From Amoebophrya sp. A120 (lineage: Eukaryota; Protista; Dinoflagellata): a DNA stretch of 64,000 nt. Below, one piece after another: positions 618 through 21,829 of this stretch. The translations under genes and the position numbers were made by a program. Numbering within the stretch: position 1 is the stretch's first letter; each line of letters opens with the position of its first letter. The notes under the pieces were generated by a model. It was given only the letters and a program-made list of their open reading frames with translations, did no database searches and had not been told where the DNA came from. The stretch is from positions 2,934,587 to 2,998,586 of the forward strand of contig CAJINV010000010.1 of the NCBI GenBank assembly GCA_905178155.1, given 5' to 3'.

Positions 618-673
<56 letters not shown>

Positions 674-1300: not shown

Positions 1301-2380
1301 TTGGTATATAGCAATCAATGTAAATCTCAAAAGTTGAAGTTGATAAAATTTGCACAGAAAGTAAATGTGAATGTTTGAACAGTGGCAGATGATCTTTGTT
1401 GTGAATCACAAGAGTGGTTTTTCGCACTGAAGATTAAACTTACGCGGAGAGAACGGTGTTGATAAAAAGAAGAAGCAAGGTGAATTACAAACGTTATACA
1501 ATTGACTACCATAGCAGCCTGCTTAGTCTCAGAAGATGTTGATAGTTTTTGTTTTTGTCAAAGTATGCTGGAAAATAATTCATCTTCATCTTGTTCGAAC
1601 AAAATAAAGCAAAAAATGCAGCTCGTCGCCCCGCTTGCGCTTCACTCGCAGCCGCGTTTGTTCAGTCTGCGCCGGCCTCGTCCCCCTCCCAACCCTCCGA
1701 GGCGTTCCCGCTTTCCGCCGGGGCCGGCGCATCTCGATCGCGTTCATTTTTGGAAGTAGAGCCGTCGACGTTTCCACCACTATAATCCACGTTCTCGTCA
1801 CCGCCCTCTCCCCGGTCGTCGGGGACTTGCGAAGCCGCTGAAAGAAAGGGATTCTGCTGGACGAAGGACGTCGAAGCTGTGCTCTGGCGTAGTCGAGCTG
1901 ATGAAAAACGGGAAAGCGACCAAGGAGATGAGGTCCGCGATTGCCGATCTGAAAACATCCTCCGCAATGATCCCGACCGCGACGCCGGCGACCGACTGGC
2001 CACTGGAGAATTTCTCACTAGTGTATCCTGGGTAACAAAAGCGTGCCCACACTAAATTTGTCGCGCAAGTTTTCAAGAGCTGTAGCCTCAGGGGCAGTAT
2101 GAAGATTTTCTACTAGAAAATCTTCATACTCACACGACAAATATAGCCACTAAGGTCGTGTGATGCTCTAGTAAAACTAAAACTAAAAATGATAATCAGG
2201 ATTGCCACGTGCTACACGTGCGACACGGGTGCGCTAGCTAACCACGACTTCTGCGCAGTGATCTATGTATCATATGCAACAACCGAATAGCCTTATTCTC
2301 GGCTTGTACTTCATCTGTAGCAGTGCTCCAGGAGCTCCACCCAACTTGATTATGAGGTGAGTACGTCGGCTACGTTGATT

Positions 2381-5300
2381 TTACTCAGGATACGATGATC
2401 GTAATCCTCGAAGAGGATTTGCTTTGCTAGTGCTGCTGGTGGCGAGGGCCACAGGAGTTGTAGGATCCGGCCTCGCGGCCCTGCGCCCCGAGATCGTCCT
2501 CTGCTTTCCTTTGCTAGCGCTCTTCCGCAGTTCCTGCGCTCTGTTGACCACTTGGTCCTGGAGTCGTTTCAGATCCACCGTGAATTCCTCCCATTCTCCG
2601 ATGCTTTCCTGAACGACAAGGCCCTTACGTTCGGGGTCAATTGTGTTGTCGTCTGGCACCGGGTCTTCCTTTCGTCCTTCACGGAGAGCGGGAACACGTC
2701 GAAGCGTCCTATCCCGGGCCTGCTGCTTTCTGATGTACTGGACGTGATCCCCCCGCTGGCCGAAAGGGCGGCCAGGTCGTGACGTAACCAGAGACGCGAC
2801 CGTAAGGGCTGCGGAAAAAGGCCTCCCTTTCCGCGATTCCTGGTAGGGGCGGAGAATGTAGTTTTTGTACAATTGCTCTCCTTCTCCGTCAGGTGGCTTT
2901 GTTGTTGTTCGCAAATAATAACTTCGTCGTTTTGTTTCAGGGGCAGGGTAGACCTTCCGCAGATTCTCCCGCGCAACGTTCCATGGCTCCTGACTCCCCT
3001 TGCCGAGCAAGACCAGGCCGCCCTCCGAACCGCCCACCGCAGGCTCTCCGAAGAGGTCCGATAGAGTCCGCGCAACGGCGTACAAGTCGAATGCCGGACC
3101 GTAGGGCAGGTTTGCGAGATCGTCCCACAGCGGCCCAACCATGAAGCACGTCGTGTCAGCCACGGGGTTGATGTACCCTGGAGAGCCAAACATTCCCGAG
3201 TACAGCGGTGGGCCGTACATTAGTGGCCACGTGGTGTACCCCGTTTCGTCATCAGCGGTCGTCATCTGATCATGAACGGCGACGAAGGAGGACAGCCCGA
3301 AGTCAAAAAATACGGGTTCGTATGGATGTGTCAGGATCGAAATCGACAAAGTCGAAAAATTTGTGATGCACAAAACCGATGCCAGTTGGAGCCTCAGTTT
3401 CCAAGTGGCGCATGACAAATTTAGGGAGCACCCAAATCCAGGCTGTCATGCTGTTTGGACGAAGAAGGTTGGTCCTGTCATGCTACTCTGGCAGCACAAG
3501 GCATACCCCTAAACAGGCTTACAGTCGGTCTCATATGCCTGCTCTCCAATACAGGCCTTCAGTGCTCTTCATTTTATGCATCACAAATTTTTCGACTTTG
3601 TCGATTTCGATCCTGACACATCCATAGTTCGGTGTATAAGGTTACCCCGTTCGCGTGATCGATCCGAAATCCCATGTTTTCCGGTTTTATGTCATTGTGC
3701 ACAAACCCAAGGTCGCCAAGCTCCAGGATTTTGGCATACATCGACTTTGCCAGGCCGTCGGCGGATCGCAGGGCGCCGGCAATCATGTCGACAGGAAGAT
3801 GAGCAAAAGAATGGGCGCCGCCATTGCTGTCAATCACTTCTATTGTATTGAAAGCCGGAGTGGTATCCTGTGTAAAAAAGAACGTAGTTTTTGATTGATG
3901 TAGCGACGCCCCGCCCGCCCCTGACGTCACTCGGTACCCGATCGCGATCGCCCGAAGGACAGAGGGCTTATCATGCATGATTTGCTTGTTCTTGCACAGT
4001 CCATGCCTAATGCTCATGCGGCTCTACTACAATCATGATGACAGGCATGCTCTAGTATTGACATACGGAATGCGGATTTCATCCAGTGTCGTGAAAGCTT
4101 TTGGATTTGTAATGCAGAGTTCGCATCATGAATGTAGGTCTAGGTATCATCATGTTACACGTTTTATTTACACAGGATAGATGGCAACCCTCTCCAGTAC
4201 AAAGTGGAAGGAAGTCTCGTATTCATTCGCGATATGCATTGCAAATACTAATGCATCGGGGTCTGGAACTGGACTTGCGCTTGTAATGCGAGCGGAAGCA
4301 GAAGCGGATTTCATTTGGTTATCCTTATCACAGACAAGGACCTGGTGCCGCGTTCGCTGCAGCAAGAGAATGACTCGCCATGTTTCTTCTTGTCGCGCTA
4401 GGAGGCGCTTTGTACATGTAGAAGACGAAAATTCCTATGTATACAAAAGAAAAACCAATAAAAAAAATTGATGTGATCATGACTCAGCAAGGAAGACCGC
4501 CGCTGTGTCATGATGCGTGCTTTTCATCTCGTCCAGAGGACCCGGACGGTTTTGTATTGACAATGCATACACCGGGGTCGGGACAAAATTGCCAGCTTCG
4601 TCGAGCTTTTGGTATGCCGCAGAAAAGTCCATCCACACCAGAGGAAAATATATTTGCGTAGCGGTTTTCAAGAGTCCTGCGTCAGCCCTTTTTGCCGGAT
4701 CAGCGTAGGAGCAAACTTTTTATTTTGTCGGTGAGTGTTTATGTATCAATGAGGAATTTTATGTATCAGTATGATCACAAGCCAAATAAAACTCCGGATG
4801 AACTGCGGCCGCCCTTGTAAGTGTTGCGTATCGTATCCACATGAAAGAATCGGAGTACTGACACGAACTACTAAATTATGCTTTGCCTTTTTGTCTGGTG
4901 TGGGTGTACTTCTTTGCTGTGGGATATTTGCACCTTCCTGGTCACCACAACGCGGTCGAAGGGTACCACGGCGTTTGGGGCTGCCTGGGTCAGTATCAAA
5001 TGTAAAAATGTCTGGGTCTGGAACAATGCAACTTGTGATGCTGCATTTGGATTTCAAAAAAATCTATATTGCATGAGTGCTAAAGGAAATGCAATTTTTG
5101 CTACGTCATGCGGAATACGCATCGAGAAGCCCTCAGAAAATCTGTATTGCTGCGGTATGCATCACAGACATCATGGCCAATGCAAAGCGTGCATGACAAG
5201 TGTCAGAAGCTTCCAGACCCAGACATTTTTGCGTTTGATAGTCAGCAGAGTGTTCATGATGATTTCCGCGTACACGTCGTAGCCACATGTGTGCAGTATC

Positions 5301-8061
5301 CTGTGTAAAAACGTACCCACCCCAGAGTTGTCATGCAGATTTGCAATGACAGGAACACTTGTAATGCGCTTCCCCATGAAAGGCATTTCCAATCGTGTTT
5401 CGGCATTTGTAATGCTGTGACCAGGATGAGCAGATGGATTTCTGATGCAGCTGGCCTTGCGAACCTGCACTACACTACGGACTGCAACTTGTGATGCGTG
5501 ACCCCCAAAAGCTCTAGGTTTGTGTTGCAAAATCCCCATCTCGACTCTGGTGTGGGGACGTTTTTACACAGCATATCCATCTTGAATTCTTCATCTTTCT
5601 TTTTCTTTTTTTGATTCCTTGTCTCTTCGTCATCGGATTCCTGCACCTCGAAAAATGCTTTCACCCGAAAATGCTGGCACCGAACTGTTTTGACGACTGT
5701 GCTATCCATTCGACAAAAGCACCCCGCGGACATTTGATGTTTCTCTGCGTCTACTGTGCGCACTACTTCTATTTTAATTTTGTTTTTGATGTCGTACAAC
5801 TACAAGCATTACTACACAGCAAGACCACGGAAGAAGATGTTTCTGAAAGAGCGCCGGCACTGATACTAGTACATATCAGAACATCTTCAAGGAGCAATAG
5901 AATTATTCGTACTGCCACGACCCTGCAACATCAGGCATGCTTACTAGAAGAGTGGCTCAGACTGACAAAAATAAACGCCACGATTGTGCTTTGGTTCTTT
6001 CACGGGATAGCTCGTGGGGTCGTCTGGCAAATCCTGGACAACGCCGAACGAGCCCGAGCCAAGCTCTTTTCCAATACGACCCAGTGTGCTCGTACTCGTT
6101 TGCGCTTCCCCGGGTTTCGGCTTGGACGGTTTCCACGAAAGATGAGCTAGGTCGCCGAGGTCGTGCCCTTCATTCGTGCCACCATCGCCTTCTTTGTTTT
6201 GGTCGTAGTTTTGTGTATACGTATACCCGGCCCATCCTTCAACCATCTTCTCATCCAGTACTTTGTTCCATTCAGTAAGCATTTCTTCCTTGCTTTTGAA
6301 CTGTTTACCGAAAGCCTTCTCGGTCAGATGCTTGAAGGTTTCCGGCCCCTGCTCTTGCATTTCGCGAAAGGCCTGAGCTGTCAGCCATTTCATCTTGTCG
6401 TAAACCTGTGTCCTGCCTCCACTTGCTTGCTTTAGGAATTCCTCGCTGCGGTAGCTGCCGATCAAGTCCGCGTACCATGCATTTTGCACAACTTGGTCAT
6501 TCGCTGCGTCCGAAAAAGCGTACTGATCCTTCGCTCGTACTCCGGTATCCTGCAGCGCCACAACCGCGCGCAAAGTGTCCGCCTCACCTGCGGCGTCCAA
6601 AGGAGGCCGCGGAGCGCCGGCTGTACTGGACAACCGCGATGATGGACCACGTCCAGATATCCTGAGTAAAAACGTACCCACACCAGGGTCAGGATGGGGA
6701 TTTTGCAGCACAAACCTAGGAGGTTTGTGAGTCACGCATGACAAGTTGCGCTCTGCAGTGTAGTGCAGGTCAGCAAGTGCAGCCGCGTCACAGATTCATC
6801 TGCTCATCCTGTTCACAGCATCACAAATTCCAAAACACGACTGGAAATGGCTCTCATGGGGATGCGCATTACAAGTCTTCCTGTCTTTGCAAATCTGCAT
6901 TACAACTCTGGCGTGGGTACGTTTTTACTCAGGATACCAGGGGGCGATGAGGCCGGCCGCGGAGGCGTCGATTGAGAACGCAGTCCACGATATCAAATGC
7001 AAAAGTGTCTTTCTGGAAAGTTGGAACTTGTGATGGTAACTTTGGACTCTAAAAAAATCTGTATTGCATGACCAGCAAGAGGAGCCACATTTGTGCTACG
7101 CGAGGAGGGCATTTGTGATGCGGAAATGGCATCAGGAAGCTTTCCAAAAATCTGTGATGCTGGGTCATGCGTTACAAGCATCATGGGTCATGCCAGACAA
7201 GCATGACAAGCCTTCCATTCTTCCAGACCCAGACATTTTTACACTTGATACACGACTGGGAGGGCCGACCATGGAAGAAGGGGACCGGAACATCCTCAGA
7301 GTAGGCTTAACGGACGACCTGGATGAAGTGAACGAAGTGCCCTCTACTCCTGCTTGTGGCGGAATTCTTGCCGCTGCCTCTTGTTCTAAGAGGAAGCTGG
7401 TGGAGGTTGCACTAGCATCCGTGGCACCCCCTCCGGGGGAAGGTGGGGATGCAGTAGATTCTGACTCCGATTGGACATCGGCGACGGCCGGCTCTTGCTG
7501 CAGCGGGTCTCCGCTTTCGGCGCTGGGTGAAGTAGACGGCGTAGAAGAAATAATCGTGTCACCAACAAGAACATCATCTTGATGCTCAAGTAGAACATCC
7601 CGGCCGCCTGCAGTTGCTGGTGTTCTTGGCGCAGAAACAACATCAAGCTTTCCGCTCTTACCGCTCGAAGAAGTAGAAGTGCCCGACGTGGTCGTTTGGA
7701 AGAAAGAAAATGACGACATCAGCCAATCGGTGCCTTGTTGCAGCAGCCAGTGACGCTTGGCGCCCGGGCGGGGTGATAAAAACTTCCGCTCCTGTTTATT
7801 TTCTTCTTCTTGTTGCACCGGCGGAGGCGGAGCTGCTGGTGATGCGGCCATGATAGGCGCGGCCCCGACAAGGACATCCGTTGGAGTGGTCTCCGTATTG
7901 GGCGGAGACTTGGCGGCAATCCAGCTTGGCGGATCTTCAGGTGCATTTTGTTTTTTGTCAAACCCCGAATCCCGCCCGGCGACAGAGTCAGAGAGGACAA
8001 GGAGTATTAAAACCGCTTTGATATAATTACTTAATGGCGGAAAGAACAGCGACACCACCAT
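2381..8061 (-). CDS. Secreted (signal-peptide) Ser/Thr protein kinase, copy 1; 10 exons, about 996 aa
   Basis: Hydrophobic N-terminus MVVSLFFPPLSNYIKAVLILLVLSDSVAG. Removing 9 introners (each element plus 5 nt) gives a continuous 2991-nt ORF with GSGSFGVV, VVK, AEIIMN, HNDIKPEN, DFG, GSPGY and FDLYAV motifs. Confidence 0.85.
3321..3626. mobile_element. Introner family D (kinase copy 1)
   Basis: Perfect TIR of about 50 bp beginning TATGGATGTGTCAGGATCGAAATCGAC; DR GTTCG/GTTCG. Confidence 0.92.
3864..4179. mobile_element. Introner, B-like (kinase copy 1)
   Basis: TATCCTGTGTAAA...TTTACACAGGATA; DR AGTGG/GATGG; site empty in copy 2. Confidence 0.85.
4233..4569. mobile_element. Introner, diverged (kinase copy 1)
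   Basis: TATGCATTG...CAATGCATA; DR decayed; frame restored by removing element plus 5 nt. Confidence 0.8.
4613..4926. mobile_element. Introner, B-like, diverged (kinase copy 1)
   Basis: TATGCCGCAG...CTGTGGGATA; DR TTTGG/TTTGC. Confidence 0.8.
4994..5240. mobile_element. Introner family A (kinase copy 1)
   Basis: TATCAAATGTAAAAATGTCTGGGTCTGGAA TIR; DR GTCAG/GTCAG; empty site with a single GTCAG in copy 2 near 17430. Confidence 0.93.
5297..5575. mobile_element. Introner family B (kinase copy 1)
   Basis: TATCCTGTGTAAAAACGTACCCA TIR; DR decayed. Confidence 0.87.
5703..6009. mobile_element. Introner, diverged (kinase copy 1)
   Basis: TATCC...GGATA ends; absent from copy 2 (DATKVVK is continuous). 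Confidence 0.75.
6658..6936. mobile_element. Introner family B (kinase copy 1)
   Basis: TATCCTGAGTAAAAACGTACCCA perfect TIR; DR CCAGA/CCAGG. Confidence 0.9.
6991..7250. mobile_element. Introner family A (kinase copy 1)
   Basis: Family A TIR; DR CACGA/CACGA. Confidence 0.9.
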
Positions 8062-10397
8062 CTTCCGTGACTGCGGTGGTCTTATTTTCAGGAAACCGGA
8101 AGATACTAGAAGACGGCCGATTTTTGCTCTCTTCCCGTTGTCGTGGCGACTGCGGCTGTGCCGTTCACTTCGCACAGCGCCGTTTACTGTCCACCCTCCC
8201 AGCCCTTCTAAGCTCCGTTTCTGCGAAGAGAAATAACCGAGTGCGTTCTGGTTCTCGTTTCACCGTTGTTTTGTCATCGTGGTTGAGAATGATAATTTCA
8301 AAGTTATATTTGGGTCGTTTCGAAAAAGGAAAGTGGGTACTGCACGAAAGATGAAAACTACGGCATTTAGTCGTTGTGAAATACAGATTCAGATCGTCGT
8401 TATGTTGTCTTCAATTAATTTAAGTGAGGTGAAAAGTTCAAGTACTTAGTTTGTTTGTTTGTTGTAATAAAAGCCGTAAGTTTACAAAATTATACCTGAA
8501 AACAAAATTTTCTCAAAAGTCGGGGTGTTGTTTGTGCTTGGAGTTTTTTTTCAAGAAGAAAACAATCCGAAGAAGGGAGAAGTTCGCGACCGCCCTATTC
8601 CACTGTGGGGGGAGGGTCTCAAACCTGGGGAAAGGGATGGAACATTCCAAGCAGATAAATATAAAAATTTACGCACAAATCATAATCATTGCAAAAGAGA
8701 CCGGACGCCGCGACCACTACAAAAAACTTCTACCGAAAGAAATCAAGAATTTTGAAGCACCAGCAAAGACGAACTGGGCGAAAGTTAGAAGTAAGTGGCG
8801 ATGGCCCATGAACGCAATTCATCACAAGGTGCTACGAAAGCACGACCGATTGCTTTTTCGTTTTCCTTCACTCCACCAAACCGAGGACATCAAAAGCTAT
8901 ACTTCTGAAGTACCACATCAACGACACGTCGACCTCCACAACGCCCGGCTTTAGCCGCGGTGCTGACGAGCAAGTTGTACTTGTAAATCAGAATAACTTT
9001 ACGCTGTACAACGAAGGCACCGAGAAAGATGCTGATGAGTAGAGCAGGCTTTCTTATAATTGCAGTGTCTTCCTCTATTTCTTCACGCTCACCGACTTCT
9101 ACACATGATCACTTTACTTCCAACCATGGTTGCAAAATCCTCGAATGCGTGAATGCTAAGAGAGGATAAAGAGGGCGGTAGGAGGACAATAAAGTACTGG
9201 TCGTGCGGGTCTCGGCTTTTTTCATAGTGTCAAAAAAGTTCGTGTTCGCTTCCCTCCATGGAAACCGGTACATGGTGCGAAGTGTCTTCGAGGCAACAAA
9301 AGATGTGTTTCGTTTCATGTGTCGTGTATTTTCTGATACTGCTCTCCCGCAACGAATCGCCGAGGACGACACGAAAATCAGATATTTTGTATTAATTTCT
9401 TTTTTTTGTTGCAGAGTGGTCACGTGAGTAGAAGTGCAAATGAAAATGACTGCAACGAGGAGAGCGGTAATGTTGCCAAATCAAAGAAATCTTCAATGTT
9501 GTAAAAAAAAAGTTAAAGTAGACACTAGCACGACATGTCAATTTTCGAAGGATGTAGAGATGCCTCGTCGCACTGTCGACGTTAGCCATACTTTTTTTAC
9601 AACGTCAACGGTCATAGTCAAAATGCGAGGTGAGACAACAACAAACACAAAAACAAGAAGTAACTCTTTTATCAAGCAAGTTTCGTAGGAAAGGTGAAGT
9701 AGGTAGTAGTACACTCTTCAATTCGACGCAAGAGTAGGAAGTGTCAAACCAACAGTCAATTTCAAGTAATAATACAAACATAGAAGCAGACAAAACATGA
9801 CGTGAAGCTACAGAAATTATGAAAAATTAATCATGTGCGTGGTGGTCGTGAAGACCCCGTGAAGTTCCAATTTTCGTATTCAAAAATGTGAGGAGCGTTG
9901 CTCCTGTTGAAAGTGGAAAATGCGAGCTGTGGCGCTTCTCGAAAATGTAAACGGATGTTGACAAGCAAGTGCGATGAAGCTGATTAAAGTACTTGCAAGT
10001 AGAAGATGGAGATGTTGTACTTAGTATGAACAAGTTGTGATGAAAATACGATGAAAATGCTGGCTCGCCTCACGTGTCGTGAGTCCATGTAGGACCAGTG
10101 TCCACAGTCTCATGGACAACTTGGCTACAAATAAAAATCCCAGAATGTTCCTCCAACTAGAAGCACTATCTTCGCGAGCGGGTTCTTGGTCAAATACATC
10201 ACGAAAAAGGCCTGTGTCTGGCAGAGACACTGCGACGACACGCCGGTGGGGAACTTGACTCAAGGCATCTTCCCGCCATCTTGGTTCGACAGGCAATGCC
10301 TTCGTTCTGCTTTGTTTCTTCACAGTCAGATTTGGAGGTGGACGAAGACGACGTCGATTGAGAACGCCGCCGCCGGCGGATGGGAAGGATGGGAGAT

Positions 10398-10660
10398 TAT
10401 CAATATGTGAAAATGTCTGGGTCTGGAAGATTACCAGGTTTGTCATGCACATTTTGCATGACTCCTGACGTTCGTGATGCATGCCCTAGCATCACAGATT
10501 TTGTGAGGGCTTCCTGATGCCTATACCGCATGACAAATGCTCTTTCCGTGTAGCAAGACTCGGGCTCTCTTTGCTGCCCATGCAATACAGATTTTTTTAG
10601 AATCCAAAATCAGCATGACAAGTTGGATGCTTCCAGACCCAGACACTTTTACAGTTGATA
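10398..10660. mobile_element. Introner family A (kinase fragment)
   Basis: Family A TIR; DR GAGAT/GAGAC. Confidence 0.88.
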
Positions 10661-10819
10661 GAGACCGGCGGGACGCCTTCTTCCGAGGCCGAGCGGACAC
10701 CGAGCTGGAGGTGGAGGACAAAGCGCCTCCTCGTCCTGCTTGTGTCAGAGTTCTTGCCGCTGCAGCCTCTTGCTGTTCCAACAGGAAGCTGGTGGAGGTC
10801 GTTGTACTACCGTCACCTC

Positions 10820-11028
10820 TATCAACTGCAAAAATGTCTGGGTCTGGAAGATTCTGAGGCCTGTGATGCACGTCTTGCATGAGCCATGATGTCTGTGATG
10901 CACGCCCTAGCACCACAGATTTTTTGAGTGGGGGCATCTTGATGCCTATTCCGTATGAGGAATGCACTATCCTTGTTGCAAAAATTATATTTGCTACTCA
11001 CGCAACCCAGACATTTTTGCAGTTCATA
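10820..11028. mobile_element. Introner family A, internally shortened; same site as 20757-21022
   Basis: Family A ends; left flank ACCTC equals the right flank of the copy-2 element. Confidence 0.8.
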
Positions 11029-11086
11029 ATTCAAGGCACCTTCCCGCCTTCCCGGAGGTTCGACAGGCAAGGCAATGCCTTCGTCG

Positions 11087-12363
11087 ACAAAAAAGTGTTA
11101 ACGTTACGGCTTTGGCGATTTTTGGAACAAAATTTTTTTTTCCGCACAGTGGCTTTTTTTTCATGTAGAAGCCAACACTTTTCATGATACTAGCTACCGC
11201 GGGAGACTCTGTTGTAGCGTCATCCTCATCGGTTTGAGCTAGCTAGTACACAAAGCATTCCACTCCGCGCCCGGGTCTAGCGCAACCTCCGGAGGAATAC
11301 CACGGGCGCCGCGGCTCTGACTGTTTTGGCATGATATGGCGGTGATGTTGGCGACCTTTCGCCATGAAGTCTGTCACGCAAGGCGTGCGCCATGTGTCGG
11401 CATATGAGCCTATGCGACAACCCCCCGAAAGGTCCGCGCAACTCTTTACCATATCGCCACCTTAGAACAGTATAGGCTCGCTGCGTTTCTAGTCATTGCG
11501 CTGCAGCTTTTGAGCCATCTCACCAAGTTCTCTCCATGAAGCAGAAAAGCTGTGACTTCGAGGATGAGGAAAGTTGGCAAATTTAGGGCACCAAAGTGCC
11601 CAAGTTTTGCAGTCACCCATAAAACCGTTAACACTTTTTAGAATGGGCGGTATGATCGCCCCAGCCTGCCAAAAGCAGGCATTTTTGTATGAAAATGCCA
11701 AAAAATGACCGTTAACACTTTTTAGACAGCACGCTATGGTCGATTTATCCTCCCCAGAGACCGCGCTTCTTGGCCTGCAGGGTTTTGGACAGGGTAAGTC
11801 GATCATAGCATGCTGTCTAAAAAGTGTTAACGGTTTTTCTGGGTGACTGCGAAATTTGGCCTCAAATTGATAGCAAATCATGGACTTTTTCGGCGGAATT
11901 CCCTATGACCCGAAAAAACCGTTAAGACTTTTTAGACAGCACGCTATGATCGATTTTGCCTGCCAAAAGCAGGTCCATCCTCAGTGTCGATAGCGGGGGC
12001 GAGGATGGTGGCAACTCGAGACCATCTCTCAATGAGGTGGCTTGCAGTAGCTGCCGTCCACGAAGCGTCCCCAAACACTTGAAAAGCAGGCTCCGATGAC
12101 ACCGAGCTGGTGCGGAGGCGCTGCGACCGGGTCCAGGAGCCCAAGTGGCGCGGAAGGTTCGCCATGGAGCGGCCCCTGTGGGCGAAGTTCCGCGCCGTCA
12201 GGCCTTGTGCACCAGCTAACTCAAACAAAGTTAGTCACTCAGAGTCCCACAATAGTGAAAAGAGTGAGCGGGGCCCTTTACGCATTCATGTGATGCCGGC
12301 AGGGAACCCACAAAAAATTTTTAATGCCAAAAATGCCAAACCGTAACGTTAACACTTTTTTGT
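11087..12363. mobile_element. Non-autonomous DNA transposon (MITE-like), about 1.28 kb
   Basis: Perfect 23-bp TIR ACAAAAAAGTGTTAACGTTACGG, continuing with mismatches. Internal repeats of CCGTTAACACTTTTTAG in both orientations (about 11620-11960). No transposase ORF. Confidence 0.75.
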
Positions 12364-12462
12364 GGTTAACTCTGGTGGGGAACTTGACTCAAGGCATCTT
12401 CCCGCCTTCCCGGAGGTTCGACAGGCAAGGCAATGCCTTCGTCCCGCTTTGTTTCTTCACAG

Positions 12463-15400
12463 TCAAGGAGCAACGGGTCCGTCGCCTTGGTCGTGCCCTT
12501 CACTCCCAGCACATGCTCCACCGTCTTGCAAGCACGACGAGCTGGATTCTCCCGCCCGGAGCCGGTCAGGCCATTGTCCTTGTTGCGAGCCACCTGGTCG
12601 TGACACAGCAGGTGGAGAACCACTGACGGCCGTGGCGTGGCTGCTCGTCCTGAGGCCGGCCGAAGCTCCGCCTCGACCCCCGGCTGCGAGCGAAGAAGCG
12701 GGCTGCGGCAGAGAAGGAGCACCACTGCGGGCCGCGGCTGCGAGCGAAGAAGCGGGCTGCGGCAGAGAAGGAGCACTGCGGCCCGTGCTATGCCCGTGGC
12801 CCGCGTAGGCGGGGAGAGAACTAGCGCCACCCTGTGCTACCGGCGGGCTGGGTGGGTGCACCAGACGAGAACCCGCGCTGGAGCTGCGGCTGACTCCGCT
12901 CCCGACACTGATGAAGTCGGGCCCGCCATCCGGCTGGTTCGGCATGCTCGAACAGGGCGGGCGCAGCACCGGAGAACCCGTGCTGGAGCTGCGGCTCACC
13001 CCGCTCCCGACACTGAAGTCGGGCCCGCCATCAGGCTGGCTCGGCATGCCCAAACTGCGAGAGGACAAGGGGTCTGCGGCCATCCCGCCATCCGGCTGGC
13101 TCTGCGAGAGGACAGGGGGACTGTGGGTATCCCACAACCCGGCTTGCCCGGCGTGCTCAAACGGCGAGAGGACGGGGCCAGGGGGACTGTGGGTATCCCA
13201 CAACCCGGCTTGCCCGGCGTGCTCAAACGGCGAGAGNNNNNNNNNNNNNNNNNNNNNNNNNNNNNNNNNNNNNNNNNNNNNNNNNNNNNNNNNNNNNNNN
13301 NNNNNNNNNNNNNNNNNNNNNNNNNNNNNNNNNNNNNNNNNNNNNNNNNNNNNNNNNNNNNNNNNNNNNNNNNNNNNNNNNNNNNNNNNNNNNNNNNNNN
13401 NNNNNNNNNNNNNNNNNNNNNNNNNNNNNNNNNNNNNNNNNNNNNNNNNNNNNNNNNNNNNNNNNNNNNNNNNNNNNNNNNNNNNNNNNNNNNNNNNNNN
13501 NNNNNNNNNNNNNNNNNNNNNNNNNNNNNNNNNNNNNNNNNNNNNNNNNNNNNNNNNNNNNNNNNNNNNNNNNNNNNNNNNNNNNNNNNNNNNNNNNNNN
13601 NNNNNNNNNNNNNNNNNNNNNNNNNNNNNNNNNNNNNNNNNNNNNNNNNNNNNNNNNNNNNNNNNNNNNNNNNNNNNNNNNNNNNNNNNNNNNNNNNNNN
13701 NNNNNNNNNNNNNNNNNNNNNNNNNNNNNNNGGGGCCAGGCGGACTGCGGCTATCCCACAACCCGGCTGGCTCGGCTGGCCCAAACGGCGAGAGGACGGG
13801 GCCCGGGGGAGGACTGCGGCTATCCCACAACCCGGCTGGCTCAAACGGCGAGAGGACGGGGCCCGGGGGACTGCGGCTATCCCACAACCCGGCTGGATTG
13901 GCTGGCTCAAACGGCGAGAGGACAGGGGGGCTGGCTGTGGCCATCCCGCCACCCGGCGCCGGCGCAAAACCACTAGAGATCCATCCGGGGCCGCCGCTCG
14001 AAACGGGGGCTCCGGCCCCTGCGACAGGAGGAGGCGTCCGCGCATCATTTTGGACCTGCCTCTGGAGTTCCTTGAGCTTGTCGTGGTCTGGGATGCTTTT
14101 CTGGACGACAAGGCCGTCAGCTTTTATGTTGTTTGGCCACGGGGCTCCCTTTTGTCCTTCACGGAGAGTGGGCAGCGTCAGCGTATTCCCGCTCTGCAGC
14201 TGGTGCTTTTTGATGTACGTGACGTGATCCTCGTGCTGCCCCTGCCCGGAGAAACTGGAGGGCGTAATCGTCACCAGAGACGCGACCGTGAGCGCTGCGG
14301 AAAAAGGCCTCCCTTTCCGCGACTCCTGGTAGGGGTTGAGGATGTAGTTTTGGTAAAGTTGCTCTCCGTCAGGCGCAGGCTTCGTCAGCAAATCATAACT
14401 TCCTCCTCTTCCAGGACCACCAGGGTAGACCTTTTGCAGGTTCTCCCGAGCAACGTGCCATGGCTCCTCACTCCGCTCGCCGAGAAAGACCTTCTCGTTC
14501 CCCCCGTCTTCCACCCCAGGCTCTCCGAAGAGGTCCGCCAGAGTCCGCGCAATGGCGTACAAGTCAAATGCCGGACCGTAGGGCTGATGGAAAGGAGAGC
14601 CCCCCAGCGGCTCAACGTTGAAGCACTTATCGTCAACCAAGGGATTGATGTACCCAGCAGTCCCATTATGGGGATGTCAGGATCGAACTCCACAAAGTTG
14701 AAAGGATTTTAGCTTGTAATGCCAAACCGACCTCCGCAGCCACTACACAACCTGCGTAACTCTAAGAACTTGCAAATGCATATTAAAACAATATATAAAT
14801 GCCTGTAATTAGAGGGCACGCAAGTGAGGGCGATAGTAAGCCTGTTTGGGGTCGGAGATAGCGCTGCCAAAGCAGCACGACCGAGGACGCCTTTTTTGTC
14901 CAAAAACATAGCACCATGATAAATTGGATTGCGATCGTGGTCAGGAAATTTTTCATGCGGCGCTCAGTAACTGGGGTCTCAACTGGAACTGACTTTATGC
15001 ACGGCAAGTCATCATCTCAACTTTGTCGACTTCGATCCTGACACTTCCATAACCCAAGACGTTTCCCCCGTACAGCGGATCGCCGTACATTAGCGGATCC
15101 ACAACAAAAAAATTCTCGTCCGTACAGACAGTTATTTTCTTGCATGGCAATGGGAAAAGTATATTTTCTTCATCTTCTGTCCGTATTATTGTACTCATGC
15201 GCCATGATAAGACTTGGTAAATAAACCTAAACGTGTCATGCACGACACAAAATGCAGCATTTTTTGTGTAGTATGATGATGTGTAGTACGGAAAACAACT
15301 ATTGTCGAACTTTGTGTTGCGTATAGTGTCCAAGTGGTGTACCCCGTGTGGATAGATTCCCCTTCATGATCAACCGGAGTCGTCATCTCATCATGAACGG

Positions 15401-18400
15401 CCACGAAGGAGGCTATGAAAGTGCACCACTAACCCCCCCTCCGCCTCATGTGTAGTATATTTCTAGCAACAGAAATCCGGATCACCTCAAAAATGCAGCG
15501 CTTGCATGACAGATCTTCTAGGTCCGGCCTTTAGTGTCTTTCGGGGCTCCAGAACTTCCCATGCAAACACGATGAAAAGGCTCTGGCAGGCCGAGGATTT
15601 GGCATTTTTGCATAACAAATGAAGCGAGAGGGAGTTCTTGTCGACTTCCATAGAGTATCAAATGTAAAAATGTCTGGGTCTGGAAGATTCTGACACTTGT
15701 CATGCACGTTTTGCATGAGCCATGATGTCTGTGATGCATACCCTAGCAATACAGATTTTTTGAGGGCTTCTTGATGCGTATTCCTCATGACAAATGCCTT
15801 CTCAGCGTAGCAAGAATTGCATTCCCTTTGGTACTCATGCAATACAGATTTTTTTGGAATCCAAATGCAGCATCACAAGTTGCATTCTTCCAGACCCAGA
15901 CATTTTTACAGTTGATATAGAGGACATCCCGAAGTCAAAAAATACGGGCTGGTCGTATGATATGGGAGTGTCAGGATCGAAATCGACAAAATCGAAAAAT
16001 TTGCAATGCATAAAATGGATTCCAGATCGAACCTAGTTTCTAAGTGGCGCATGACAAATTCTGGTAGTGCCTAAATCGAGTTTGTAATGCTGTTTAGGCA
16101 GAGAAGGCTGATTCTCTCATGCTGCTTTAGCAGCTCGAGCTATAACACCAAACAGGCCTACAACCGGCCTCACTTGCCTGCTCTGCAACACACGTGTTTC
16201 GCGTCATGCATTTTATGCATCACAAATTTTTCGATTTTGTCAATTTCGATCCTGACAGTTCCATATATGAGGTTACGCCGGTCGTGTGATCGCTCCGAAA
16301 TCCCATGTTGTTCGTTTTTATGTCATTGTGCACAAACTATCAAATGTAAAAATGTCTGGGTCTGGAAGAATGCAACCTGTCATGCTAAATCTGAAGCATG
16401 CAAAAATCTGTGTTGCGTGATTTTTGCCAAAAGTCGTCCAGTTTTGGCCAAGTCGGGAGGGAGTTTCTCACGCAGGATAGGCATGAGAGAGATCGCACAG
16501 AATCTGACATGCTTCTAGGTCCTGCATTTTTCCAGGCTTCATGGGTCATGGAAAAGCTGCATGACAAATCGCGCATTCTTCCAGACCCAGACACTTTTAC
16601 ATTCGATACAAACCTATCCACACCAAATTCCTCCCCATACACGCCGTCAAACTACTGCGCCTCCATGACGAGATAAACAGCAACAATACCAATACTTGCT
16701 GTGATTTATCATGCATGACGTCACACCTTTTCGCTCTGTTCTGTCCAGCAGCATTATAAAGTAGAGGGAGATAAAGATGATGACAAGTGGCTTGCGACGT
16801 ATTGAGGTGAACACAAATTTTCACTGTGTCATGCGTTTCTTTCCTGTAGTATACGTGTTCGGGGGAGGTTGTAAATTTGTATTGCATAAAACCCAAGGTC
16901 GCCAAGCTCCAGGATTTTGGCATACATCGACTTTGCCAGGCCGTCGGCGGATCGCAGGGCGCCCGCAATCATGTCGACACTAACATGAACATAAGTAGTA
17001 GTTGCACCAGTGACTGGTGTCTCATCGAGCTCCGGAATGGCAACCCTCTCCAGTACAAAGTGGAAAGACGTCTCGCCTTCGTTCACCAGATTCGTCGAGC
17101 TTTGCCCTTTCCTGGTCACCTATCAAATGTAAAAATGTCTGGGTCTGGAAGCATGCAACTTGTCATGCTAAATCTGAAGCATGCAAAAATCTGTGTTGCA
17201 TGATTACCAAAAGTCGCACAGTTTTGACCAAGTCGGGAGGGAGTTTCTCATGCAGGATAGGCATGATAGAACTCTCACGCAATCTGTCATGCTATGTCCT
17301 ACCTACCAGACCTCATGGGTCATGGAAAACCTGCATGACAAGTCTGGCATTCTTCCAGACCCAGACATTTTTACATTTGATATCACCACAACGCGGTCAA
17401 AAGTTACCACGGCGTTTGGGGCTGCCTGGGTCAGCAGGGTGTTCATAATGATTTCCGCGCGCACGAAAACGCCACAGTCGTATCAAATGTAAAAATGTCT
17501 GGGTCTGGAAACTTGTGATGCTGGGTGGCGTCTCATGATGAGGCTACAAATGCTGGCTCAGCATGACAAGTTTCTGAGCTCCTCGGTGTTGCCTATTCTG
17601 CATGACAAACTGCGCTTCTGCATCACAGAAAAACGGAGCTCTTGGGTAACGTGCATGACAGATTTAAGAGTCATGTCAGACAAGCATGACAAACATGAAT
17701 TCTTCCAGACCCAGACATTTTTACAGTTGATAATTCGTCACTGTCAGCCACTGAGTCTTCATCTTCCTCGCCATCTTCCTCGCCAACGAGGACCCGAAAA
17801 TGCTTGCACCGAACTGTTTTCACGACCTTCGTGGCGTCTCCTGACACACTATACACAACGCCATACGTGCCCGAGCCTAGCTGTTCTCCAATATCCAGCG
17901 CGCTCTTTTCCCCGGGCTTGGACGGTGTGGGTGTCCACGAAACGCGAGCCAGGTCGCCTCCGTCCGAAACTTCACTCGTGTCATCATCGCCTTCTTCGTT
18001 TTGGTTTTGTGTATCCGTATAGTACTCGGCCCCTGCTATGCCCCGCTCAGGTAGTTTTTTTACCATCTAAATTGCGAACAAAAAACTAGTTGTACACAAA
18101 AAAGAAATAAGTATAGAAGTCTCGTGTAGTCCACGAGGTGAACCACTTCGTGCGGCATGCATGAACAGCATGAGGACGTTGAACAACTGGAGCAGGCAAC
18201 TACGCGCGGCGTTCTTTATTTTTTGCGCTGCAGTAGATAAGCATGAACCACAAGAGCCAGGTTCTTCACAGCAACCTGACCTTCATCCGGTTTGCCAGTT
18301 GATGAGCCTCGTCCAGAACTTGCCAACAGCACGCCCAATCGTGTACTAAGATGAAGATGAACAAGGGTGCGATATTAATGATCCTGGTGCAGCTTTTGCA

Positions 18401-21400
18401 TTTGCAAATCCTTGTAGTTGAGGGGCCAATCGTAGTTGCAACAACGAAGATGGTAAAAACACCTGAGCAGCCGATACGTCCTTCAACCATCTTCTCATCC
18501 AGTACTTTTTCCCACGCAGCAAGCATTTCCTGCTCGTTTCTCAACTTACGATTTTTAAAAGCCTTGTCGGTCAGATGCTTGAAGGTATTCGGTCCCCTCT
18601 TTTGCATGTCGCGAAAGCCCTTATGCATTGCAAATATGTCTGGGTCTGGAAAACGGCTGATTGGGACGCCTGCAAGAACCAATGGCCTAGCGGCTAGGCA
18701 TAAATAGTTTTTTGCTTCTGGAATGCATCTGAAACTGAATTTGATTCGTAAAGCACGCATTATCAATTGCGTTTTTGCAACATCACAGAGGAAGCAGCTG
18801 CCCTCTCGCTGCTCATGCAACACAGATTTTCATCTAGGAATGGTGATCGCCATGGCTATGGCGCAAGACACGCATTATATACAACTCCCGCTTTTCGAGA
18901 CAAAAACACAGTTGCAATGGATAGCCGTCTTTTGTCAGCTTTTTCATCGTGTCGAACTCCTGCTCTGCTTCTGCATTGCAAAAGTATCGCACTCGTAATA
19001 ATTACAATCATGCCCGGCAGCTTCCTTCTCCTAGGCAAGACATCATAACGAAATTTCATCTAGGGCTAGACAGTTCACGAGAAAATTATACGAGCAAGAA
19101 TTTGCGAATGCGATCATCATGAAATTACTACGTAGTGCGATATTTTTTACTTTTGCAATTCATACTTTCCTGCCTCCACTTTTATCGAGTAGTTCCTTGT
19201 ACCATGAATTTTGCACAACTTGTATCGTAAGGAAAAATCCCCCCTCCCCATATCGAAAAGGTATGTTTCCGAAAATTTGTGTTGCTGATTTGAGACCCCA
19301 AATCACGTGTGTCTTGCAAGAAGGCAACGCCACAACCTCCGCAGCATTGTGTAGGCGGTTTGTGATGCTGATGGGCCTACAGCGTGGACGTTTCTCATGC
19401 TAGACCCCTAGGTCAAAACCTCTCGACTTAGGCTTAGTATGGGCCTGCATTCCTCCCCAGCAAGACAAATCTGATTTGTGTACGCAAATCCTGCATCAGA
19501 GACTTCATTTTGATATGGGGAGGGGGGATTTTTCCTGTTGATAACTTGGCCGCTCGTCGCGTCCGAACAGGACATCACAATGAAAAACGTTCCCTCGTTA
19601 TCCAAGAAAAAAACGTTGTTAGTGTAAATTTGTGATGCGCAACATGCAAAATAATTGCGTCTGTCATGCTTGGCATGCATCGTAGGGTCCATTAAAGGGC
19701 GTTTTCGCGTACTATCTGCGCATGACAGGTTTCTGCTGTCATGCCAGACAAATTTGTAATGCTGTTCCTCCAAAAAAGTTACACCTACAATGTTTTTTTC
19801 TTGGATACTCGTTTTCCCATATCTGTGATGCAGACTTGTGGCCACGACAACCCACCAGTTTTGTGATGCTAGAAGGCAAATAAAGCTGCTGCGGCCTCAC
19901 TGTAGAAGTGCTGGCGAGCGTAGGAAAACGACCTTGCATCTCCAACATGACAGGAAGCAACTCGAAGTCGTGGGCAACAGCATGAATAATTACCTGCAAA
20001 AATTCAGGCCACAGCTGCGTCTCTTGCCTTCTAGCAAATATACAAATCGATTTGTGTACGCAACTACAGCATCACAAATTTCGTTTCCGATATGGGGAGG
20101 GGGCATAATTTTCCCTTGTGATAGGCGCGGAGTCGGACGAAGACGACGTCGATCGAGAACGCCGCCCACGACGGGGGGACCTCCTGGGGGGGGTCCTGTG
20201 AGAACGGGCGGAGGCGGCCCGGGACCTCCTCGGAGTATCAAGTGTAAAAGTGTCTGGGTCTGGAAGAATGCAAGATTTGTGATGCAGGTTTTCCATGACC
20301 CAGGAGGTCTGGAATGCGAGACCCAGCATGAAAGATTCTTTGAGGTGGTCCCTATCATGCCTTTCCTGCGTGAGAAGCTCCCTCTAAACTTGGTCAAAAG
20401 CGCACACCTTTTGGCACTCACGCAACACAGATTTTTGCATCATTCAGATTTTTTAGCATGACAAGTTCTAATCTTCCAGACATCCAGGGACTTTTGCATT
20501 TGATACGGAGTCTGATCAGGCGATTTGGAGGTGGACGAAGACGACGTCGATTGAGAACGCCGCCGCCGGCGGATGGGAAGGCGGATCATGGAAGAAGGGG
20601 TTCGGCGGGACGCCTTCTTCCGAGGCCGAGCGGACACCGAGCTGGAGGTGGAGGACCCAGTGCCTGTACTTCCTGCTTGTGTCAGAGTTCTTGCCGCTGC
20701 TGCTTCTTGTTCCAACAGGAAGCTGGTGGAGGTCGCTGTACTAGCGTCACCTTTACTATCAACTGCAAAAGTGACTGGGTCTGGAAGATTCTGAGACCTG
20801 TGATGCACGTCTTGCATGAGCCATGATGTCTGTGATGCACGCCCTAGCACCACAGACTTTTTGAGGGCATCTTGATGCCTATTCCGCATGAGGAATGCCC
20901 ACCTATCCTTGTAGCAAAAATATATACTCCGTTTGCTACTCATGCAATACAGATTTTTTTGGAATCCAAATGCAGCATCACAAGTTGCATTCTTCCAGAG
21001 CCAGACATTTTTGCAGTTCATAACCTCCCTCACCAGTACCGGAAGCTGGAGATGCAGTAAATTCGGATTTTTCCGAATGGACGTCGACGGCCGGTGGTTC
21101 TTGCGGGTCTCCGCTTTCGACGCTGGGTGAAGTACTAGACAGTGTAGAAGAAACAATCGTGCCATCAACAAGAACGTCTTGATGTTGAACATCTTCCCGG
21201 CCGTCTGTACTTCCTGGTGTTCTTGTTGGCGCAGAAACACCATTCGGATTTTCGCTCTTACCGCTCGAAGTAGGAGTCGCACCCGACGTTGTTCTTTGGA
21301 ACAAAGAAAATGAAGACATGTTCCAATCGGTGCCTTGTTGCAGCAGCCAGTGACGCTTGGCGCCCGGGCGGGGCGATAAAAACTTCCGCTCATCTGTAGT

Positions 21401-21829
21401 TTCTCCTTCTTCTACTTGCACCGGGGAAACTGCTGGTGCTGCGGCCATGATAGGCGCGGCCCCGACGACATCCGTTGGAGTCTCCGTATTGGGCGGAGAC
21501 TTGGCGGCAATCGAGCTTGGCGGGTTTTCGGCTGCATTTTTGTCAAACCCCGAAACCCCGGCGACAGAGAGACCGAGGAGCAAAGCCGCTTTGATATGAA
21601 CATTATCCTGCGTAAAAAACACGAGCGTAGCCCAACTATGTTTCCTTATTACAACTTCTGAACAACTTTCTTTGCAGCGAAGTTTCAATACATGGTCGTA
21701 CCAGCATCTTCATCATTGCTCCGCAAAGACATAGCCTGCTAATTATATCGCGCACTAAAAGTCGTAGCTGATCCTCGTAGTATTTTACACAGGATATCTT
21801 AATCGCGGAAAGAGAAGCGACACCACCAT
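12463..21829 (-). CDS. Secreted Ser/Thr protein kinase, copy 2, with a C-terminal Pro/Gly-rich tandem repeat
   Basis: Paralogue of copy 1: MVVSLLFP..., GSGTYGVV, VVKTVRC, HND, DFG, GTAGY, FDLYAIA. It has 17 introners plus 1 nested element. The last exon spans an assembly gap, so the stop position is tentative. Confidence 0.8.
13107..13930. repeat. Coding tandem repeat (about 57-63 nt unit, PPGPVLSPFE..AGLWD.HS) spanning a gap
   Basis: Repeat units on both sides of the N-run. Confidence 0.85.
13237..13731. other. Assembly gap (495 N)
   Basis: Run of N. Confidence 1.
14667..15051. mobile_element. Introner family D (kinase copy 2)
   Basis: TATGG..TGTCAGGATCGAA TIR; frame restored (NVLG|TAGY). 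Confidence 0.85.
15096..15323. mobile_element. Degenerate introner (kinase copy 2)
   Basis: Decayed ends; DR TAGCG/TAGTG; absent from copy 1. Confidence 0.65.
15414..15652. mobile_element. Introner family G (kinase copy 2); its sense 5' end is interrupted by the next element
   Basis: TATGAAAGT...ACTTCCATA; DR GAGGC/GAGGA once 15656-15917 is removed. Confidence 0.8.
15656..15917. mobile_element. Introner family A inserted at the terminus of the family G element
   Basis: Family A TIR; DR TAGAG/TAGAG overlaps the terminal TA of 15414-15652. Confidence 0.9.
15961..16265. mobile_element. Introner family D (kinase copy 2)
   Basis: Family D TIR; DR TATGA/TATGA. Confidence 0.9.
16338..16608. mobile_element. 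Introner family A (kinase copy 2)
   Basis: Family A TIR; DR CAAAC/CAAAC. Confidence 0.9.
16615..16888. mobile_element. Introner, diverged (kinase copy 2)
   Basis: TATCCACACCAAATT...AATTTGTATTGCATA; DR AAACC/AAACC. Confidence 0.82.
17121..17382. mobile_element. Introner family A (kinase copy 2)
   Basis: Perfect family A TIR; DR TCACC/TCACC; site empty in copy 1 near 4942. Confidence 0.93.
17481..17732. mobile_element. Introner family A (kinase copy 2)
   Basis: Family A TIR; DR AGTCG/ATTCG. Confidence 0.9.
18037..18476. mobile_element. Introner, diverged (kinase copy 2)
   Basis: TAT..GCTCAGGT..TTTTACCATCT / AGATGGTAAAA..ACCTGAGC..ATA; frame restored (MVEG|RAEY). Confidence 0.8.
18622..18923. 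mobile_element. Introner family A, degenerate (kinase copy 2)
   Basis: TATGCATTGCAA...TTGCAATGGATA; DR GCCCT/GCCGT. Confidence 0.8.
18970..19164. mobile_element. Introner family E (kinase copy 2)
   Basis: TCTGCATTGCAAAAGTATCGCACT...TTTTGCAATTCATA; frame restored. Confidence 0.8.
19223..19543. mobile_element. Introner family C (kinase copy 2)
   Basis: TATC..GGAAAAATCCCCCCTCCCCATATC TIR; DR ACTTG/ACTTG; site empty in copy 1 near 6491. Confidence 0.9.
19573..20123. mobile_element. Introner family C hosting a nested introner
   Basis: CATCACAA...TTGTGATA ends; body similar to 46858-47178; frame restored (SAP|SDAT). Confidence 0.8.
19599..19807. mobile_element. Introner family H nested inside the TIR of 19573-20123
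   Basis: TATCCAAGAAAAAAAC TIR; DR CTCGT/CTCGT. Confidence 0.88.
20236..20505. mobile_element. Introner family A (kinase copy 2)
   Basis: Family A TIR; DR CGGAG/CGGAG. Confidence 0.9.
20757..21022. mobile_element. Introner family A (kinase copy 2)
   Basis: TATCAACTGCAAAA...TTTTGCAGTTCATA. Confidence 0.88.
21604..21796. mobile_element. Introner, B-like, in the signal-peptide coding region (kinase copy 2)
   Basis: TATCCTGCGTAAAA...TTTTACACAGGATA; absent from copy 1. Confidence 0.8.

What the first reader, a model, noticed from the sequence alone, without database searches (positions are those of the whole stretch)
2381..21829. Two tandem kinase paralogues share none of their 9 versus 18 introner positions
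Seen: the exons align readily at nucleotide level, yet in the alignable regions each insertion in one copy is an empty site in the other (4994 against about 17430, 17121 against about 4942, 19223 against about 6491). The fragment at 10330-11028 shares one site with copy 2 and has one private element. Inference: about 27 independent intron gains (or precise losses) occurred since a fairly recent duplication. This provides an internal control for insertion age, target preference and DR decay.
Basis: seen in the sequence. Interest (0 to 1): 0.8.

Follow-up and report, generated by a model that had tools for sequence, protein, structure and literature searches.

The report
Twin genes, entirely different transposon introns
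Two neighbouring copies of a kinase-like gene in a marine parasite carry 10 and 18 transposon-derived introns, none at the same place, so these introns were likely all gained after a fairly recent duplication, which would date a known intron invasion and imply an unusually fast rate of intron gain at this locus.

Summary
Confirmed, with corrections. The elements are the published introners of Amoebophrya sp. A120 (TAT...ATA inverted ends, 5-bp target duplication). Copy 1 has 10 elements, not 9; copy 2 has 18, giving 16 exon junctions. My spliced proteins match the public A120 models at 26 of 26 junctions, and likely-RNA contigs skip 12 of 12 elements tested. None of 19 well-aligned junctions is shared. 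The duplication is unsaturated (dS 0.29, 95% 0.24-0.35) and was at DNA level: the intergenic spacer was duplicated too and gives 0.21. Best reading: independent gains after duplication, 28-42 per kb per unit dS, against about 1 reported for core dinoflagellates; this locus is 2-4 times richer than the genome average. Caveats: one same-family pair sits 8 nt apart (chance about 0.05); target duplications decay faster than dS allows, with a G-to-C bias, so they are a poor clock; the outgroup paralogue lies outside the window, so some precise losses are not excluded. The scan had noted the fixed cut (1 base before, 4 after) on other DNA of this genome, but showed no note on this paralogue contrast.

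The parts
1662..8061 (-). copy 1 kinase-like gene, CDS 1111 aa, 10 introners
   Evidence: spliced translation identical to P0001; 10 of 10 joints in likely-RNA contigs
12463..21829 (-). copy 2 kinase-like gene, 18 introners, N gap at 13236-13730
   Evidence: open frame after splicing; agrees with P0002 and P0003 at 16 of 16 junctions
   Evidence: unique joint 2019|2394
3321..3626 (.). copy 1 element, family B, TSD 5/5, 54 of 55 nt inverted ends; 8 nt from the site of 15961
3864..4179 (.). copy 1 element, TSD 3/5
   Evidence: unique joint 3859|4181
4233..4569 (.). copy 1 element, TSD 2/5
4613..4926 (.). copy 1 element, TSD 4/5
4994..5240 (.). copy 1 element, family A, TSD 5/5; empty site at 17430
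5297..5575 (.). copy 1 element, family C, TSD 3/5
5703..6009 (.). copy 1 element, TSD 1/5, weak inverted ends
   Evidence: unique joint 5698|6011
6658..6936 (.). copy 1 element, family C, TSD 4/5
6991..7250 (.). copy 1 element, family A, TSD 5/5
10329..11029 (-). partial duplicate of copy 2 (20522-21023), downstream of the copy-2 stop, likely in its 3' UTR
   Evidence: 90-97% exon identity; joints; breakpoints
10398..10660 (.). element private to the fragment, family A, TSD 4/5
10820..11028 (.). element shared with copy 2 (20757); right-hand repeat replaced by unrelated sequence, still skipped in register
14667..15051 (.). copy 2 element, family B
   Evidence: contig piece ends at 14662
15096..15323 (.). 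copy 2 element, TSD 4/5, decayed ends
15414..15652 (.). copy 2 element whose end is interrupted by 15656
15656..15917 (.). copy 2 element, family A, TSD 5/5, nested in the end of 15414
15961..16265 (.). copy 2 element, family B, TSD 5/5; 79% identical to 3321
16338..16608 (.). copy 2 element, family A, TSD 5/5; one exon base from 16615
   Evidence: loose end at 16337
16615..16888 (.). copy 2 element, TSD 5/5
17121..17382 (.). copy 2 element, family A, TSD 5/5; empty site at 4942
17481..17732 (.). copy 2 element, family A, TSD 4/5; 5 nt from the site of the unrelated 5297
18037..18476 (.). copy 2 element, TSD 3/5; the only one of 28 with GT-AG ends under the fixed cut
   Evidence: contig piece ends at 18032
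18622..18923 (.). copy 2 element, TSD 4/5
18970..19164 (.). copy 2 element, TSD 2/5
19223..19543 (.). copy 2 element, family D, TSD 5/5; empty site at 6491
19573..20123 (.). copy 2 element, family D, TSD 1/5, holds 19599
19599..19807 (.). nested element, TSD 5/5
20236..20505 (.). copy 2 element, family A, TSD 5/5
20757..21022 (.). copy 2 element, family A, shared with the fragment
   Evidence: contig piece starts at 21024
21604..21796 (.). copy 2 element in codon 11, TSD 0/5; spliced exon 5-mer equals the copy-1 empty site
8627..9215 (.). spacer between copy 2 and copy 1, homologous to 233-873
   Evidence: 519 aligned nt, distance 0.21 +/- 0.04
233..873 (.). spacer downstream of copy 1, upstream of a likely third paralogue left of the window

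Best explanation
A kinase-like gene was duplicated in tandem together with its 3' UTR and intergenic spacer, likely while it carried few or no introners, and each copy then likely gained its own set of small inverted-repeat transposons that the cell removes from the transcript. Shown: tandem homology including non-coding spacer; unsaturated divergence (0.20-0.29); 10 and 18 elements with no shared site; clean empty sites; removal that restores both frames. Inferred: the duplication came from unequal crossing-over between the 5' UTRs of copy 2 and an older third paralogue; each element entered as a MITE-like DNA transposon making a 5-bp target duplication; removal is set by position relative to the inverted ends (intron starts 1 base before the element and ends 4 bases after it), so exactly one duplication's worth is lost whatever the site, which lets almost any insertion survive. 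Inferred too: gains were spread over time (one before and one after the fragment split off at about 6% divergence), and the intron-side copy of the duplication is then remodelled, so it is not a neutral clock.
For: Spliced copy 1 is identical to P0001; copy 2 agrees with P0002 and P0003 at 16 of 16 junctions. 12 of 12 elements in 1400-11100 are skipped in contigs X1-X3 (RNA by guess, one sample); 3 joints are unique at 4+1 on the plus strand and all 12 allow it. dS 0.29 (0.24-0.35) over 626 codons, four-fold sites 0.20, spacer 0.21 +/- 0.04: three clocks agree. 0 of 19 well-aligned junctions shared; an all-ancestral model needs retention under 0.26 per copy, and the sites interleave between copies. 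Where the exon 5-mer differs from the paralogue, the intron-side repeat follows its own copy 9 times, the paralogue 2 times, neither 3 times (P 0.03 against 50:50). At 3321 both repeats carry a Glu codon where copy 2 and the third paralogue have Gln, so that insertion likely followed a copy-1 change. The fragment's shared element diverged 4% while its exons diverged 3-10%, so dS is a fair proxy there.
Against: Repeat decay is too high for neutral post-duplication ages: 26 mismatches in 120 sites (4 indel-affected elements of 28 left out; 41 of 140 with them) against 10-18 expected for even ages, P 0.0001-0.05, although it fits if most came early. 12 of 28 elements have no relative in the window and several have weak ends, as old elements would. 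The polarisation drops to P 0.14 without one doubtfully aligned site. The 3321/15961 pair is as divergent (79% identity) as the genes. The longest run of synonymous identity is marginally long (41 codons, P 0.04), a hint of gene conversion. No outgroup DNA was available. Copy-2 joints were mostly hidden (586 rows not shown), and the public protein models may rest on the same RNA as X1-X3.
Confidence: 0.72

Rival explanations
1. Turnover: several older, decayed elements predate the duplication and were removed precisely from the other copy, by recombination with spliced cDNA or with an empty paralogue.
For: Excess repeat decay; 12 of 28 singletons; 17 against 9 elements in the aligned part; for 8 old-looking elements retention up to 0.48 is not excluded. 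Precise loss leaves the same clean empty sites.
Against: No survivor in both copies; sites interleave rather than vanish in blocks; polarisation favours own-copy states; decay has a directional bias that can explain the excess (G lost 17 times, gained 5; C gained 20, lost 8; 45 elements; P 0.02-0.04, post hoc).
Confidence: 0.17
2. One exception to independence: 3321 and 15961 descend from a single ancestral element that hopped 8 nt in one copy (cut-and-paste with clean repair), or one seeded the other locally. Positions would still be unshared, but the gain count drops by one. Not exclusive of the best explanation.
For: Same family, same orientation, colinear, 79% identical; all 3 family-B copies among 55 elements lie in this kinase lobe; chance of a same-family, same-orientation pair within 8 nt is about 0.04-0.06 (0.66-1.1 pairs expected; 0.106 same family; half for orientation). 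Same-family elements cluster along the window (P 0.002-0.003).
Against: Each has its own perfect 5-bp repeat; both arms of 3321 differ in concert from both arms of 15961, as two subfamilies would; contigs show the 3321 ends with other flanks at 99% or more (loose ends); members of family A are also 75-92% alike.
Confidence: 0.2
3. The duplication is older than dS says because gene conversion has homogenised the exons; the insertions then accumulated more slowly.
For: A 93-nt identical run in the kinase core; runs test P 0.04; tandem arrangement.
Against: The non-coding spacer gives the same distance, 0.21; four-fold differences are spread along the gene; conversion should sometimes copy an element across, and none is shared.
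Confidence: 0.07
4. One copy is a retrocopy of spliced mRNA, which wiped its earlier introns in one step.
For: Copy-2 upstream homology ends at 22746, matching the place (8626) where the longest copy-1 contig ends; copy 2 has an inferred GT-AG 5' UTR intron that copy 1 lacks; mRNA recycling in dinoflagellates (recalled, not checked).
Against: About 600 nt of spacer between the transcript-contig ends was duplicated with the gene; the upstream boundary is explained by the older split from the third paralogue; it would not explain why the parent's old elements are not simply fewer gains in copy 1, which still has 10 of its own.
Confidence: 0.04

Closest known systems
Introner elements / non-canonical introns of Amoebophrya sp. 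A120 (Farhat et al. 2021, PMC7789003; read: abstract, passages, sections 5, 7, 11, 12, 16, 31, supplement passages)
   Same: TAT-starting inverted repeats followed by an A run, 3-5 nt direct repeats over the boundaries, non-GT-AG ends; positions unshared between A25 and A120 orthologues; the Fig. S23 legend places A120 inverted repeats 1-5 nt from the splice sites. The tools name these proteins as A120.
   Different: The published comparison is between strains at about 50% protein identity, which gives no useful age. Here the comparison is within one genome at dS about 0.3. The word 'paralog' did not occur in the supplement text; its figures were not visible to me.
Amoebophrya A120 introners in Gozashti et al. 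2025 (PMC12130899; passages) and 2022 (PMC9860276; passages)
   Same: [quoted passage not shown]
   Different: In the passages seen, paralogues are filtered out as false positives, not used to date gains.
Introner-like elements of Symbiodiniaceae and Polarella (Roy et al., bioRxiv 10.1101/2020.10.14.339549; passages and section 4)
   Same: DNA-transposon introns with target duplications; gain rate scaled to dS; biased conversion of boundary bases with age.
   Different: About 1 gain per kb per unit dS there, over 562 orthologue sets; 28-42 here at one intron-rich locus. There the 4-nt repeat supplies a G-starting splice site; here no dinucleotide is fixed (25 end pairs among 28).
MITEs (non-autonomous TIR DNA transposons)
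   Same: Short, terminal inverted repeats, constant-length target duplication, nesting, both orientations within a family.
   Different: Removed from transcripts; no cognate transposase known in A120 according to PMC7789003 section 16.

Membership tests
Amoebophrya A120 introner elements | 8-20 nt inverted repeats at the intron ends | tested here: met
   8-14 of the first 14 bases pair in all 28
Amoebophrya A120 introner elements | ends start with TAT | tested here: met
   25 of 28 have TAT at both ends; 15096, 18970 and 19573 deviate
Amoebophrya A120 introner elements | 3-5 nt direct repeat overlapping the exon/intron boundary | tested here: met
   5-bp repeat perfect in 11 of 28, one mismatch in 6, two or more in 11
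Amoebophrya A120 introner elements | removed from transcripts without GT-AG | tested here: met
   12 of 12 skipped in likely-RNA contigs of one sample; 1 of 28 has GT-AG under the fixed cut
Amoebophrya A120 introner elements | repeated in the genome as families | tested here: inconclusive
   16 of 28 have a relative in the window, 12 do not; the whole genome was not held
MITE | mobilised by a cognate transposase | not testable with these tools
   no genome held
Protein kinase (PF00069) | reaches the Pfam cut-off | tested here: not met
   13.4 bits against 31.7, E 0.05
Protein kinase (PF00069) | Gly loop, catalytic Lys, HxD..K.N loop, DFG, subdomain-IX Asp in order | tested here: met
   seen in all three paralogues (motif names recalled); Atlas feature score 0.98 to Pkinase clusters; 20 of 20 weak PDB matches, E 0.13-0.96, are kinases or kinase-bearing proteins
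Secreted (rhoptry-kinase-like) effector | signal peptide and export into the host | tested here: inconclusive
   one N-terminal hydrophobic stretch at residues 14-28; no predictor run, no apicomplexan hit

The most novel reading that the evidence does not exclude
The A120 intron invasion, including its decayed singleton introns, is younger than about 0.15 substitutions per site per lineage and ran at tens of gains per kb per unit dS, an order of magnitude or more above the fastest published eukaryotic rates; elements spread partly by local hopping, and selection rewrites the last four intron bases soon after insertion. Paralogue pairs in the public assembly would then give a ready-made time series of how a eukaryote acquires most of its introns.
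Probability: 0.4. Interest if true: 0.72.

Novelty: new member of a known kind. Interest (0 to 1): 0.5.

Why it matters
The age and speed of the Amoebophrya intron invasion are open: the published strain comparison is too distant to date it, and its authors say they cannot tell gain from loss. A recent tandem duplicate with a matching non-coding clock bounds the age from inside one genome and can be scaled to all A120 paralogue pairs at once. The empty sites also show which copy of each target duplication stays in the exon, and the fragment is a natural deletion test: an element that lost one direct repeat is still removed in register, which points to the inverted ends as the ruler. The limits are one locus, chosen for being intron-rich, in a gene under weak constraint (dN/dS 0.53-0.83).

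Tried and rejected
No whole genome was held, so family sizes and the third paralogue's introns could not be read. No RNA holder was listed on record; X1-X4 are RNA by guess. X9 (raw RNA reads, same species label) laid only 161 reads, all partial, on copy 2: no use. Including the DNA-like run X5 swamped the joint table. Metagenome scan: 1 locus of 85 stretches, 34% identity over 92 residues, not a usable relative, not followed. Protein searches found only four A120 models, no A25 or AT5 orthologue. AlphaFold model had mean pLDDT 31; no fold search run. Rfam: 2 chance matches in 1-24000. A relict spliced leader at the copy-2 upstream boundary was considered; only the last five leader bases were available from a paper and they fit 3 of 5 by eye: dropped. 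Candidates 8305-8663 and 22403-22590 rejected as introners: they are homologous UTR sequence and contigs run through 8213-8626. Cross-copy hot spots: not found. Literature searches for the paralogue contrast: 12 of 14 listed; 6 of 9 listed; no listing or passage seen reports it; subscription papers, including the final Current Biology version of Roy et al., were not searchable. Scan notes: searches returned nothing.
Full report
What is there. A self-comparison and an inverted-repeat scan and boundary checks give 10 elements in copy 1, 18 in copy 2 and 2 in the fragment. They are 193-440 nt long (nested insert excluded), mostly start TAT and end ATA, and are flanked by a 5-bp duplication in various states of decay. 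This matches the A120 introner elements of Farhat et al. (PMC7789003, section 11), and the proteins are public A120 models. The system is therefore known; the question is the paralogue contrast.

Are they introns? In contigs of runs X1-X3 (RNA by guess, one sample) all 12 elements in 1400-11100 are skipped. Three joints are unique and remove 4 bases to the left, the element and 1 base to the right on the plus strand; all 12 allow this cut. On the gene strand the intron thus starts 1 base before the element and ends 4 bases after it. I noted this before seeing that other scan notes report the same cut on other DNA; the legend of Fig. S23 in the paper points the same way. Applying the cut blindly gives an 1111-aa protein identical to P0001, and an open copy-2 frame that matches P0002 (two blocks, 252 and 404 residues; the model lacks 7 of my residues, away from any junction) and 299 residues of P0003. 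All 26 junctions agree with the public models. Direct evidence for copy 2 is thinner: contig pieces end at 14662 and 18032 and start at 21024 as predicted, and one loose end fits the double skip at 16338/16615.

Are positions shared? In a codon alignment, none of 19 well-aligned junctions coincides, nor do the 7 in poorly aligned parts. Near misses occur at chance frequency. One needs care: 3321 and 15961 are the same family, same orientation, 79% identical and 8 nt apart. Each has its own perfect repeat, both arms of 3321 differ in concert from those of 15961, and the 3321 repeats carry a codon state that looks derived against the third paralogue. At least one is therefore a post-duplication event, but a hop of one ancestral element remains possible; the coincidence has a chance of about 1 in 20.

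How old is the duplication? NG86 dS is 0.29 (95% 0.24-0.35) over 626 well-aligned codons, dN/dS 0.53-0.83; across regions and methods dS ranges 0.20-0.43; four-fold sites give 0.20 (44 of 254). The spacer downstream of copy 2 (8627-9215) is homologous to that downstream of copy 1 (233-873) at 0.21 +/- 0.04, and the 3' UTRs align more loosely (0.36, many gaps), whereas the region upstream of 22746 has no clear counterpart (scores 50-52, shuffled maximum 39). A third, older paralogue (P0004, 38% identical, adjacent model number) likely lies left of the window. I infer unequal crossing-over between the 5' UTRs of copy 2 and that paralogue; the informative UTR sites are mixed, with 8 of the last 9 siding with the third copy, which is partial support only. 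The duplicated spacer argues against a retrocopy and against exon-only homogenisation.

Gain or loss? With nothing shared among 19 sites, an all-ancestral model needs each copy to have kept under 26% of its elements, in an interleaved pattern. Where the exon 5-mer differs from the paralogue, the intron-side repeat follows its own copy 9 times and the paralogue twice (3 neither; 3 indel-affected sites left out): P 0.03, or 0.14 without one doubtful site. Against this, repeat decay is higher than neutral post-duplication ages allow (26 of 120 against 10-18). The changes are directional: in the last four intron bases G is lost 17 times and gained 5, C gained 20 and lost 8, over 45 elements (25 from the paralogues and fragment, 20 from other minus-strand frames in the window; P 0.02-0.04, post hoc; not significant in the 25 alone). 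Biased boundary conversion has a precedent in core dinoflagellates.

Rate. 19 junctions in 1.88 kb give 28-42 gains per kb per unit dS, against 'on the order of one' in Roy et al.. The locus is biased: 3.0 and 4.8 elements per kb of CDS against 1.3 non-canonical introns per kb genome-wide (Table 1 of PMC7789003; arithmetic). If the genome's non-canonical introns were as young, the average would still be near 9 (my arithmetic, an inference).

The fragment. It copies 20522-21023 of copy 2, beginning on the gene strand at the end of element 20757, at 90-97% exon and 96% element identity. It lies beyond the copy-2 stop; a contig joint at 11078 is best read as skipping a GT-AG intron 11079-12370, which would place it in the copy-2 3' UTR (inferred, since the laid stretch ended at 11100). 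It brackets ages: 20757 came between the two duplications, 10398 after the second. Its shared element lost the repeat on one side and is still skipped in register.

The protein. Kinase motifs are intact in all three paralogues and the Atlas places the domain with protein kinases (0.98), but Pfam's cut-off is not met and the fold model failed. An N-terminal hydrophobic stretch suggests secretion (inference).

Verdict. A real and cleanly supported observation about a known system. Its value is as a dated example, not as a new kind of element. I found no report of it in the searches named, whose reach is limited. Interest 0.5.

Noticed in passing
window 2024-60022: Elements of one family lie closer together than shuffled labels give (median 10.5 kb against 17.5 kb, P 0.002-0.003; 54 elements); a 145-167 nt family has 9 copies in 41.6-60 kb and none in the kinase genes. 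Suggests local hopping; detection favours intact elements and one window is a small sample.
   Followed up: partly
window 16610: Under the fixed cut a single exon base separates introns 16338 and 16615; a contig end fits the doubly spliced form.
   Followed up: partly
window 15414-15917: Element 15656 sits two bases inside the end of 15414, so removal must be sequential or as one composite intron; 19599 likewise sits in the end region of 19573.
   Followed up: partly
window 11079-12370: 1.3-kb element with long inverted ends of another type (TTA-like start on the gene strand) that appears to be removed as a GT-AG intron.
   Followed up: partly
window 21939-22187: Inferred 249-nt GT-AG intron in the copy-2 5' UTR, absent from copy 1 (contig piece starting at 22187; ends).
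   Followed up: partly
window 8626 and 22746: The longest copy-1 contig ends at an AG (gene strand) with 4 unlaid letters, a likely trans-splice acceptor; copy-2 upstream homology ends at the equivalent base.
   Followed up: partly
window 20129-20174: Internal duplicate of 20522-20581-like exon sequence within copy 2.
   Followed up: no
window 13080-13950: GC-rich tandem repeats around the N gap in the copy-2 tail; copy 2 and the third paralogue share their last residues while copy 1 has a different tail.
   Followed up: no
window 1662-21829: The three-gene kinase-like family had no hit outside A120 in two large protein collections, has an N-terminal hydrophobic stretch and high dN/dS: a candidate fast-evolving secreted family of this parasite of dinoflagellates.
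   Followed up: partly
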